DNA of 64,000 nt from Escherichia coli (GCF_003018115.1 NZ_CP027457.1); one strand, 5' to 3'; shown: positions 2,508 through 2,960, numbered from the stretch's first letter. Notes: a model not told the origin generated them from the sequence alone. Made by a program: numbers and translations.

Positions 2508-2772
2508 CGCCTGACTCTCCGGTTTTTACGTTGATGGTTGTTACCTGTTCCGCTTCGGCAATCTCCCGTTCTGTCAACGTGGCAAAGTTTGCCGCCGCTG
2601 TGGTCATGAATGCGCTTATCAGTTCGGGATGCTCCTTCGCGTATCCTTCCCCCGCGTGGCGGTCTATTACCCTGATTGCCACCTTTAAGGCGTGCTCTGT
2701 CATGTCTAACGCTTTATATTTCGGCTCTGTTCTGTCTCTGCGCATTTTGGTTATCTCCTCACTCATGCTCAC
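2497..2772 (-). CDS. Hypothetical protein (~89-91 aa)
   Basis: ORF track; start is GTG 2772 or ATG 2766; overlaps downstream ORF by 11 nt. Confidence 0.45.
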   Translation of the reverse strand: MSMSEEITKMRRDRTEPKYKALDMTEHALKVAIRVIDRHAGEGYAKEHPELISAFMTTAAANFATLTEREIAEAEQVTTINVKTGESGDDT

Positions 2773-2960
2773 TTTTACACCTCACTTTTTAAAGCGTCTC
2801 GCTTCGTCTCACTTGATATTTTTTGATGCTTTATGTGTGTGTTTCATAAGGATTTTTTTACTCCTCACTTTTGAGCATGTATACAGGTGAGAAAGTGAGT
2901 AATCGTGTTAATATTTTGTAAAAACCTCACCATTACTCACTTTTGCTACTCACTTTTTAC
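2765..2960. repeat. Iteron-like array of CTCACTTTT repeats; putative origin of replication
   Basis: At least five direct copies (about 2768, 2782, 2865, 2936, 2948), a degenerate copy near 2808 and an inverted copy near 2892, immediately 3' of the replication ATPase gene. Confidence 0.45.

What the first reader, a model, noticed from the sequence alone, without database searches (positions are those of the whole stretch)
2765..2960. Iteron array 3' of the replication ATPase: putative satellite origin
At least five direct copies and one inverted copy of CTCACTTTT, in AT-rich context, begin at the stop codon of the replication ATPase gene. This matches the usual ori placement of PICI/SaPI-type replicons.
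Basis: partly seen in the sequence, partly recalled or inferred. Interest (0 to 1): 0.5.

Follow-up and report, generated by a model that had tools for sequence, protein, structure and literature searches.

The report
Replication origin of an E. coli phage satellite
The repeat cluster is real and is most likely the replication origin of a known kind of E. coli phage satellite (a PICI), bound by the winged-helix tail of the helicase encoded just upstream, so it is an ordinary, already described kind of feature.

Summary
There are five exact CTCACTTTT copies at 2768-2957, against 0.53 expected in the whole window. Counted by the GTGAG core, there are 10 copies plus one GCGAG in 2758-2953. They fill the AT-rich gap between a RepA-family helicase gene (2957-4366, minus strand) and the next gene.

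The window is E. coli. The island sits at tRNA-Pro/yejM, an attachment site already catalogued for E. coli PICIs (PMC6092414). That paper places PICI origins 3' of pri-rep, as two iteron sets flanking an AT-rich region. It tested this only for EcCICFT073, which has a different Rep type.

Most of 80 homologous loci from other genera carry repeats right after the helicase stop codon. About 49 show the full layout: direct iterons, an inverted pair around TGTATATAC, an AT-rich stretch, then direct iterons.

The iteron sequence changes together with one residue at the start of the recognition helix of the helicase's C-terminal winged-helix domain. Asn445 goes with GTGAG and His with GTGGG. I stated this rule before checking it, and it held in 8 of 8 enteric alleles, with at least two independent switches.

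Verdict: origin of a self-loading initiator-helicase. No replication or binding experiment exists for this allele. Already known in kind; low to moderate interest.

The parts
2957..4366 (-). RepA-family (AAA_25, RecA-fold) helicase gene, 469 aa. This is the proposed initiator-helicase.
   Evidence: ORF. Pfam AAA_25 at residues 151-318, E 5e-43. RefSeq names it 'helicase RepA family protein' in identical loci. The only PDB sequence relative is the RSF1010 RepA helicase 1g8y, E 3.9e-11. The AF2 model has pLDDT 89.5. 1g8y gives the highest target-normalised TM-score listed, 0.74.
2960..3154 (-). C-terminal domain of the helicase (about residues 405-469), a predicted winged helix. This is the proposed iteron reader.
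   Evidence: The secondary structure is helix-helix-helix-strand-strand in both the full-length and the isolated models. Its Foldseek neighbours are predominantly winged-helix nucleic-acid binders (LexA-DNA, DtxR, ArsR, MarR, ORC winged-helix domain with TMq 0.78), but the E-values are weak at 0.08-0.4. The domain is present in 79 of 80 foreign loci.
3032..3034 (-). Codon of Asn445 (AAT), in the motif K444-N445-M446-R-R-W449 at the N-terminus of helix 446-455. This is the proposed base-specifying residue.
   Evidence: The sequence was read directly. Asn goes with GTGAG and His with GTGGG in 8 of 8 enteric alleles and in distant lineages.
2926..2957 (-). Helicase-proximal iteron set. AAAAGTGAG at 2949-2957 and at 2936-2944, and a degenerate copy aatgGTGAG at 2926-2934. 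Spacing is 13 and 10 nt.
   Evidence: The copies are positionally conserved in alignment A5.
2883..2899 (+). Two overlapping inverted iteron copies (GTGAG cores at 2895-2899 and 2887-2891). They form the left arm of the central inverted pair.
   Evidence: An equivalent inverted arm lies 42-65 nt after the stop codon in nearly all of the 49 of 80 loci that pass the strict search, and its sequence changes along with the direct iterons.
2878..2885 (.). TGTATACA palindrome between the inverted arms. It is a candidate melting or loading point.
   Evidence: Read directly. T-G-T-A-T-A is invariant in A5. A TATA-containing spacer of this kind sits between the arms whatever the iteron type.
2864..2872 (-). 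Central direct iteron AAAAGTGAG, the right arm of the inverted pair.
2815..2862 (.). AT-rich spacer, a candidate DNA-unwinding element.
   Evidence: GC is about 0.36. Nearest-neighbour stability of its 30-mers is -33.5 to -34.8 kcal/mol, against a window mean of -41.6.
2758..2816 (-). Distal iteron set. Copies at 2808-2816 (tcaaGTGAG), 2798-2806 (degenerate, GCGAG), 2781-2789, 2768-2776 and 2758-2766 (atgaGTGAG). The last copies overlap the ribosome-binding and start region of the next gene.
2497..2772 (-). Small gene downstream of the origin (85-91 aa, PHROG 1231, unknown function). It is not the iteron binder.
   Evidence: It is 82% identical to the EcCICFT073 protein at the same position, although that island has unrelated iterons. 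It is absent from all 80 foreign loci. PHROG match.
4363..4662 (-). DUF4222 gene overlapping the helicase start codon. It is part of the replication module in enteric PICIs.
   Evidence: It is found in only 2 of 80 foreign loci.
7884..9125 (-). Island integrase.
   Evidence: ORF. Annotated as an integrase in relatives L002 and L003 at the same site.
9201..9214 (-). Attachment-site core TTTTTAGTTATACG, one mismatch from the published yejM-luxR PICI core.
   Evidence: and Table S1 of PMC6092414.
9344..9420 (-). tRNA-Pro(GGG), next to the insertion site.

Best explanation
The array is the replication origin of a Gram-negative phage-inducible chromosomal island (PICI) inserted at tRNA-Pro/yejM. 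The gene just upstream encodes a RecA-fold, RSF1010-RepA-like helicase that carries its own C-terminal winged-helix domain.

Inferred mechanism. After helper-phage induction and excision, the winged-helix domains bind the AAAGTGAG iterons. Residue 445, at the start of the recognition helix, reads the sixth base of the iterons. Protein assembles on the two iteron sets and on the inverted pair around TGTATACA. The DNA then opens at that palindrome and/or at the adjacent AT-rich stretches, and the same protein loads itself as the replicative helicase.

What is shown here: the repeats, their conserved position and layout, the co-variation between protein and iterons, and the fold predictions. What is inferred: binding, melting, self-loading, and the source of priming.
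For: 1. The repeats are far above chance.

2. The island has PICI organisation, a catalogued attachment site and many near-identical relatives. The reference PICI EcCIO42 carries an 80%-identical helicase and an alignable origin in which the iterons are conserved while the spacers diverge.

3. PMC6092414 places PICI origins 3' of pri-rep, with iteron sets around an AT-rich region. It showed rep- and ori-dependent plasmid maintenance for EcCICFT073. The EcCICFT073 origin occupies the same slot between pri-rep and an 82%-identical downstream gene, but it has a different Rep body and different iterons (GGTAGAYA).

4. In 76 analysable loci from other genera, the 300 nt after the helicase stop have a median best 7-mer repeat count of 5. 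In 2831 background windows the count is 2-3, and only 7 windows reach 5 or more. Under a strict criterion, 49 of 80 loci have exact 6-nt inverted arms around a TATA-containing spacer, in nearly all of them 42-65 nt after the stop.

5. Only the ATPase and C-terminal domain travel with the repeats. The C-terminal domain is in 79 of 80 loci, DUF4222 in 2, and the downstream gene, PerC and the N-terminal domain in none.

6. The iteron core co-varies with the motif before R-W: KN with GTGAG, KH with GTGGG, xKKF with GTGGGGG, RKSF with GTGCGGC, and RRGF/RKGF with GTGCGC.

7. I wrote down a prediction and it was confirmed. It held in 8 of 8 alleles. L086 (KH) and L093 (KN) are 58/61 identical in the C-terminal domain yet have GTGGG versus GTGAG iterons. 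The window (KN) and L088 (KH) are 50/61 identical.

8. The C-terminal domain is predicted to be a winged helix, with residue 445 at the N-terminus of helix 3.

9. There is no DnaA box within 2740-2975, which fits a self-contained initiator.

10. A closed circular 17-kb Klebsiella record, deposited as a plasmid, is a satellite-like element whose helicase homologue is followed by the same origin layout.
Against: No replication, binding or melting experiment exists for this Rep type. The tested PICI origin (EcCICFT073) uses a non-homologous Rep body.

Most iterons here point the same way. SaPI origins are described as having iterons on each side that point in opposite directions.

The E. coli protein has no recognisable primase domain, so the source of priming is unknown.

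The distal iterons overlap the ribosome-binding site and start of the next gene, so a regulatory role is also possible.

The winged-helix assignment rests on predicted models and on Foldseek E-values of 0.08-0.4.

About a third of the foreign loci did not pass the strict inverted-arm search.
Confidence: 0.85

Rival explanations
1. The repeats are mainly an operator for the downstream genes (the small gene, PerC, capsid). The helicase's C-terminal domain or another factor binds there to control transcription or translation of the late module, not to start replication.
For: The last iterons overlap the Shine-Dalgarno-like GAGGAG and the start region of the next gene. The genes on both sides are co-oriented, with no predicted terminator between them. 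The TGTATACA/TATATAC core loosely resembles a -10 element.
Against: No sigma-70-like promoter was found in 2300-3300. The downstream genes differ completely among the 80 loci, while the array and its layout persist. The layout matches the published PICI and SaPI origin plan. The equivalent region of EcCICFT073 was needed for plasmid maintenance. A secondary regulatory effect is not excluded.
Confidence: 0.07
2. The repeats bind the helicase only for copy-number control, incompatibility (handcuffing) or partition, and the true start site of replication lies elsewhere in the island.
For: Iterons in plasmids also serve copy control. At least two interchangeable specificities (GTGAG and GTGGG) coexist in E. 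coli, as expected for incompatibility groups. Genomes carry up to 8 related places.
Against: No second comparable repeat cluster exists in the window: every AAAGTGAG copy but two lies in 2768-2956. The array contains the AT-rich stretches and the conserved palindrome expected of a melting site. It has the canonical position 3' of rep.
Confidence: 0.05
3. It is a packaging (cos/pac) or recombination site, or a chance, non-functional repeat.
For: PICIs do carry helper cos or pac sites (PMC6092414). The stem-loop formed by the inverted arms is weak but present.
Against: Co-variation with the helicase's C-terminal domain is not expected for a terminase or integrase site. The attachment site is elsewhere, at 9201-9214. 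Chance is excluded. The hairpin is only -4.8 kcal/mol, z = -1.75.
Confidence: 0.02

Closest known systems
Replication origins of Gram-negative PICIs (Fillol-Salom et al. 2018, ISME J, PMC6092414); tested example EcCICFT073, reference element EcCIO42
   Same: The island plan is the same: int, AlpA-like regulator, Icd-like, DUF4222, rep, origin, small gene, (SSB), PerC, capsid genes. The origin lies in the same intergenic slot, with iteron sets around an AT-rich region. EcCIO42 has an 80%-identical helicase and an alignable origin.
   Different: The experimentally tested origin (EcCICFT073) belongs to a primase-family Pri-Rep. That protein shares only its N-terminal ~130 residues (45% identity) with this helicase, and its iterons are GGTAGAYA. 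The RepA-type allele itself has no published test that I could find.
SaPI Rep / ori (staphylococcal self-loading helicases; PMC9371898)
   Same: The origin lies immediately downstream of rep. Short iterons sit on both sides of an AT-rich centre. A C-terminal winged-helix domain reads the iterons. One protein acts as both initiator and helicase.
   Different: SaPI Reps are AAA+ (MCM/SF3-like) ATPases with 3'-5' polarity. This protein has a RecA-fold AAA_25 core related to RSF1010 RepA. Most iterons here are co-oriented, with a single central inverted pair around a conserved TGTATATAC. The two systems are analogous, not homologous.
RSF1010 (IncQ) RepA helicase
   Same: The ATPase core is homologous. 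It is the only PDB sequence hit (E 3.9e-11), and TM-score normalised to the target is 0.74.
   Different: RSF1010 RepA (279 residues in the PDB entry) has no DNA-reading C-terminal domain. From established knowledge of IncQ plasmids, their iterons are bound by a separate initiator, RepC, and priming is done by RepB'. Here the helicase carries its own winged helix and an extra N-terminal domain.
P4 alpha protein with ori/crr
   Same: It is a satellite-encoded multidomain replication protein whose C-terminal part binds short repeats at the origin (established knowledge; P4 is compared with PICIs in PMC6092414).
   Different: P4 alpha is a primase plus helicase of a different family. Its ori and crr are not placed directly after the gene. 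The repeat sequence is unrelated.

Membership tests
Gram-negative PICI (criteria of PMC6092414) | Integrase at one end, next to a PICI-specific attachment site | tested here: met
   The integrase gene is at 7884-9125. The attachment core at 9201-9214 matches the published yejM-luxR core with one mismatch. tRNA-Pro and yejM are adjacent.
Gram-negative PICI (criteria of PMC6092414) | AlpA-family regulator after int, and unidirectional gene order | tested here: inconclusive
   All island ORFs of note are on the minus strand. ORF 7181-7387 gives only weak Pfam hits: Phage_AlpA i-E 0.0036 and HTH_17 i-E 0.01. Relatives are annotated as HTH/AlpA family regulators. ORF 7555-7806 has no such hit.
Gram-negative PICI (criteria of PMC6092414) | Replication gene followed by an origin with two iteron sets flanking an AT-rich region | tested here: met
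   published description.
Gram-negative PICI (criteria of PMC6092414) | Small size (about 8-12 kb) with no tail or lysis genes | tested here: inconclusive
   The window starts inside the island's capsid-protease gene, so the left end is not seen. Near-identical relatives L001 and L003 are about 10 kb, with a capsid gene but no tail or lysis genes.
Gram-negative PICI (criteria of PMC6092414) | Induction, replication and high-frequency transfer by a helper phage | not testable with these tools
   This needs experiments.
SaPI-type self-loading Rep/ori | Origin immediately 3' of rep; iterons on both sides of an AT-rich centre | tested here: met
   definition.
SaPI-type self-loading Rep/ori | [quoted passage not shown] | tested here: not met
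   Eight GTGAG cores plus one GCGAG are co-oriented. Only the two overlapping copies at 2883-2899 are inverted.
SaPI-type self-loading Rep/ori | C-terminal winged-helix domain that determines iteron specificity | tested here: met
   Predicted winged-helix fold (weak E-values). Residue-to-base co-variation, including a confirmed prediction. Binding itself was not measured.
SaPI-type self-loading Rep/ori | AAA+ (MCM/SF3-like) ATPase core | tested here: not met
   The core is AAA_25 / RecA fold, and its nearest relative is RSF1010 RepA.
IncQ (RSF1010) replication system | RepA-type RecA-fold helicase | tested here: met
IncQ (RSF1010) replication system | Separate iteron-binding initiator (RepC) and dedicated primase (RepB') | tested here: not met
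   No such gene is annotated in the island or in its relatives. Instead, iteron specificity tracks the helicase's own C-terminal domain.
Classical iteron plasmids (Rep_3 / RepE / pi-type initiators) | ATPase-less initiator with two winged helices, 17-22-bp iterons and adjacent DnaA boxes | tested here: not met
   The candidate initiator is an ATPase. The iterons are about 9-10 nt. No DnaA box with one mismatch or fewer lies in 2740-2975.

The most novel reading that the evidence does not exclude
The RepA-type PICI replication protein may be a distinct, so far uncharacterised class of self-loading initiator-helicase. It combines a RecA-fold (RSF1010-RepA-like) motor with its own winged-helix origin reader. 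It would work like the SaPI and viral SF3 initiators without being related to them.

Its origin specificity appears to be set largely by one residue at the start of the recognition helix: Asn for GTG-A-G, His for GTG-G-G, and other motifs for CGC, CGGC and GGGGG. That would let co-resident satellites diversify into compatible replicons by a single amino-acid change plus concerted iteron changes.

I found no paper describing this, and PHROGs lists the family (phrog_2850) as 'unknown function'.
Probability: 0.5. Interest if true: 0.45.

Novelty: already known. Interest (0 to 1): 0.25.

Why it matters
As a genome feature it is ordinary. It is the origin of a common E. coli phage satellite: parts of this module match 1577 of 5426 complete E. 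coli genomes.

Its practical value is for annotation. The rule 'RepA-family helicase with a C-terminal winged helix, followed by iterons around a TGTATATAC core' marks satellite replicons across Enterobacterales and beyond.

The Asn/His to A/G correspondence gives a simple, testable handle on replicon specificity and compatibility among satellites. It could also be used to design orthogonal PICI-based vectors.

Tried and rejected
- **Rfam scan** of 1-9600 at E <= 0.1 found only the tRNA, so the region is not a known RNA.
- **Promoter and terminator scan** of 2300-3300 found no sigma-70-like promoter and no minus-strand terminator in the gap. This gives no support for a promoter/operator reading, though consensus scans are weak evidence.
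- **Cruciform or hairpin** from the central inverted arms is only -4.8 kcal/mol, z = -1.75. I rejected it as a structural element; the symmetry is more likely there for protein binding.
- **DnaA boxes:** none within the array.
- **Neighbouring proteins as the iteron binder** (DUF4222, the 85-aa protein, PerC, the helicase N-terminal domain) were rejected. They are absent from nearly all foreign loci that keep the array. The 85-aa protein and the N-terminal domain are also shared with EcCICFT073, which has different iterons.
- **NCBIfam** gave no informative name for the helicase, its N-terminal domain, DUF4222 or the small protein.
- **Published iteron sequences:** the iterons in Fig. 2a of PMC6092414 are in a figure that is not held as text, and the supplement search for AAGTGAG or CTCACTT found nothing. 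I therefore could not confirm whether this exact iteron was printed there.
- **ED1a reference PICI:** accession NC_011745.1 is not in the collection.
- **ORF 7555-7806** is not an AlpA homologue by Pfam.

Full report
**1. The observation**

The + strand carries exact CTCACTTTT at 2768, 2781, 2864, 2936 and 2949. The only other copy in the 64-kb window is at 55117. The expected count for the whole window is 0.53, and no shuffle reached 6.

All relevant genes lie on the minus strand, where the unit reads AAAAGTGAG(G). Counted by the core GTGAG, there are 10 copies in 2758-2953, 8 co-oriented and 2 inverted, plus one GCGAG. Window density predicts 0.31.

The array fills the gap between the stop codon of a 469-aa ORF (2957-4366) and the start region of the next ORF (2497-2772). 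The copy at 2949-2957 overlaps the TAA stop by one base.

GC content falls to 0.355-0.385. Two stretches, 2815-2860 and 2896-2925, are among the least stable 0.7% of 30-mers in the window.

The layout on the gene strand is:
- three proximal copies, spaced 13 and 10 nt;
- two overlapping inverted copies;
- the palindrome TGTATACA (2878-2885);
- one direct copy;
- an AT-rich spacer of about 48 nt;
- five distal copies.

**2. Context**

The 469-aa protein has an AAA_25 domain (E 5e-43). RefSeq names it 'helicase RepA family protein' in identical loci.

The window is E. coli chromosome. yejM, yejL and yejK follow a tRNA-Pro(GGG) at 9344-9420. An integrase gene (7884-9125) lies beside it.

Near-identical islands in other strains are about 10 kb. 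Their gene order is int, HTH regulator, Icd-like, small ORFs, DUF4222, helicase, gap, small gene, (SSB), PerC, capsid genes.

Fillol-Salom et al. 2018 (PMC6092414) list E. coli PICIs at this 'yejM-luxR' site with the attachment core TTTGTAGTTATACG.... The window has that core, with one mismatch, at 9201-9214.

The same paper states that PICI origins lie immediately 3' of the replication gene, as two iteron sets flanking an AT-rich region. It showed rep- and ori-dependent plasmid maintenance for EcCICFT073.

EcCIO42, one of that paper's reference PICIs, encodes an 80%-identical helicase. Its downstream gap aligns with the window's: the iterons are conserved and the spacers have diverged.

**3. 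The tested origin belongs to a different Rep**

The EcCICFT073 Pri-Rep is a primase-family protein of 584 aa. It shares only its first ~130 residues with the window's helicase, at 45% identity. Its origin, in the same slot, uses GGTAGAYA iterons.

The small gene after the EcCICFT073 origin is 82% identical to the window's. The iterons therefore follow the body of the Rep protein, not the shared N-terminal domain or the downstream gene.

**4. Comparative test across genera**

A scan of one genome per species returned 80 loci with helicase homologues at 39-72% identity. The genera include Xenorhabdus, Hafnia, Kosakonia, Serratia, Pectobacterium, Photorhabdus, Yersinia, Morganella and Endozoicomonas, plus an Oceanospirillaceae genome.

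In 76 analysable loci, the 300 nt after the stop codon have a median best 7-mer repeat count of 5. In 2831 background windows the count is 2-3, and only 7 windows reach 5 or more.

The layout recurs: direct copies, an inverted arm, a TATA-containing core such as TGTATATAC, a direct arm, an AT-rich stretch, then direct copies. Under a strict criterion, 49 of 80 loci have exact 6-nt inverted arms around such a core, in nearly all of them 42-65 nt after the stop.

Only the ATPase and the C-terminal domain accompany the array. By tblastn, the C-terminal domain is in 79 of 80 loci, DUF4222 in 2, and the small downstream gene, PerC and the E. coli N-terminal domain in none. In other genera the N-terminus is a fused primase or something else.

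**5. Co-variation and a prospective test**

The iteron core differs between lineages and tracks the motif just before a conserved R-W in the C-terminal domain:

| Motif before R-W | Iteron core |
|---|---|
| K-N | GTGAG |
| K-H | GTGGG |
| x-K-K-F | GTGGGGG |
| R-K-S-F | GTGCGGC |
| R-R-G-F / R-K-G-F | GTGCGC |

I recorded a prediction before looking at the DNA: E. coli alleles with K-H should have GTGGG iterons and those with K-N should have GTGAG. It held in 8 of 8 alleles. Each allele had 5-9 direct and 1-2 inverted copies of the predicted core, and 0-1 of the other.

The Asn/His state does not follow overall similarity of the domain, measured over its last 61 residues:
- L086 (K-H) and L093 (K-N) are 58/61 identical.
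- The window (K-N) and L088 (K-H) are 50/61 identical.
- L086 and L088 (both K-H) are only 44/61 identical.

At least two independent switches therefore occurred, each with all the iterons changing together at homologous positions (alignment A5). The Asn-adenine and His-guanine pairing agrees with common protein-DNA contact preferences. That last point is established knowledge, not something tested here.

**6. Structure**

The AF2 model has mean pLDDT 89.5. It shows an alpha/beta N-terminal domain (1-125), a RecA-fold core, and a C-terminal helix-helix-helix-hairpin domain (405-469). Residue 445 lies at the N-terminus of helix 446-455.

The only PDB sequence relative is the RSF1010 RepA helicase (E 3.9e-11). 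It also gives the highest target-normalised TM-score listed, 0.74.

The isolated C-terminal domain (pLDDT 87.8) superposes mostly on winged-helix nucleic-acid-binding domains: LexA-DNA, DtxR, ArsR, MarR and an ORC winged helix with TMq 0.78. The E-values are weak, 0.08-0.4, as is usual for a 74-residue query.

In true phages the ATPase core has relatives annotated as replicative helicases, but the matches stop short of the C-terminal domain.

A closed circular 17-kb Klebsiella record, deposited as a plasmid, is a satellite-like element. It carries int, capsid and terminase genes, a 60%-identical helicase of the RKSF type, and GTGCGGC iterons in the same layout.

**7. Mechanism**

Best explanation, with confidence 0.85: this is the island's origin, and the helicase is both initiator and motor. 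Its winged helix docks on the iterons, the DNA opens at the TGTATACA core and/or the AT-rich stretches, and the protein loads itself.

This matches the working model for the SaPI Reps: a C-terminal winged helix, iterons, and an AT-rich centre (PMC9371898). The ATPase here is unrelated, being RecA-fold rather than AAA+. The iteron orientation pattern also differs.

No DnaA box lies in the array. Binding, melting, loading, polarity and the source of primers are all inferred. The E. coli protein lacks a recognisable primase domain.

**8. Rivals**

- A promoter/operator role for the late genes is not supported by consensus scans, nor by the complete turnover of downstream genes among loci. The overlap of the last iterons with the next gene's ribosome-binding site does leave room for a secondary regulatory effect.
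- A role in copy control or incompatibility only is possible, but there is no other comparable repeat cluster in the window.
- A packaging or recombination site, or chance, is excluded by the co-variation and the repeat statistics. The hairpin is weak.

**9. Novelty**

The kind of feature, its position and its general architecture are published for E. coli PICIs, and a reference PICI carries the same replicon type. The finding is therefore already known in kind.

Three things appear undescribed in the papers I could search:
- characterisation of the RepA-type allele, which PHROG 2850 lists as 'unknown function';
- the conserved inverted pair around TGTATATAC;
- the single-residue specificity rule.

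These are modest extensions rather than a new system.

Noticed in passing
L001 (NZ_CP027449.1 4522109-4542409), island at about locus 5400-15400: The best match to the window's replication module (100% over 2.3 kb) sits in an island inserted inside a prophage terminase large-subunit gene and co-oriented with it. It has a different integrase. This is the 'helper-embedded PICI' configuration described in PMC10111431.
   Followed up: partly
L021, L025, L026, L028, L029, L044, L051, L058, L060, L061, L063 at about +100 to +123 nt after the helicase stop; L084 (EcCICFT073) 7180-7215; absent from window 2740-2959: A second conserved motif, roughly gaaaCCCgcGyCATTACTGG, lies in the central part of many origins whatever their iteron type. 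It is also in the EcCICFT073 origin, which uses a different Rep. It could be a host-factor or priming signal. The window's origin lacks it.
   Followed up: partly
L093, about 280-320 nt after the helicase stop: A second copy of the core (CTCACT - gcgtatatata - AGTGAG) lies downstream of the main origin in this E. coli allele, suggesting a duplicated or auxiliary origin core.
   Followed up: no
window 2752-2754 (minus strand): Where related islands have the ATG start of the small downstream gene (ATGACC...), the window and its closest relatives (L002, L003) have ATA. RefSeq still annotates the identical protein from that position (2497-2754). In-frame ATGs exist at 2764-2766 and 2743-2745, so the real start is uncertain.
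   Followed up: partly
window 3977-4366 (helicase residues 1-130): The N-terminal alpha/beta domain has no Pfam, NCBIfam or named PHROG match. It is shared (45% identity) with the otherwise unrelated EcCICFT073 Pri-Rep, and in other genera it is replaced by primase or other domains. It looks like an exchangeable adaptor module of enteric PICI replication proteins, of unknown function.
   Followed up: partly
L095 = CP018459.1 (Klebsiella pneumoniae pKp_Goe_795-4, 16,971 bp, circular): A record deposited as a plasmid is a capsid-forming-PICI-like element. It carries an integrase, capsid, head-tail adaptor, a gene annotated as tape measure protein and terminase genes, with this helicase type and GTGCGGC iterons. 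It is probably an excised satellite assembled as a circle.
   Followed up: partly
window 5650-7560: This stretch between the Icd-like gene and the integrase is much less conserved than the replication module: only 33 genomes cover at least 80% of it, against 593 for the replication module. The 496-aa ORF at 5736-7226 has an odd composition and is probably not a gene. Relatives annotate several small hypothetical genes, YlcI/YnfO and an HTH regulator here.
   Followed up: partly
whole window: Matches to the DnaA-box consensus TTATCCACA with one mismatch or fewer number 28, against 13.0 +/- 3.5 in shuffles. None is in the iteron array. Two exact copies lie inside the island, at 5476 and 7333.
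   Followed up: no
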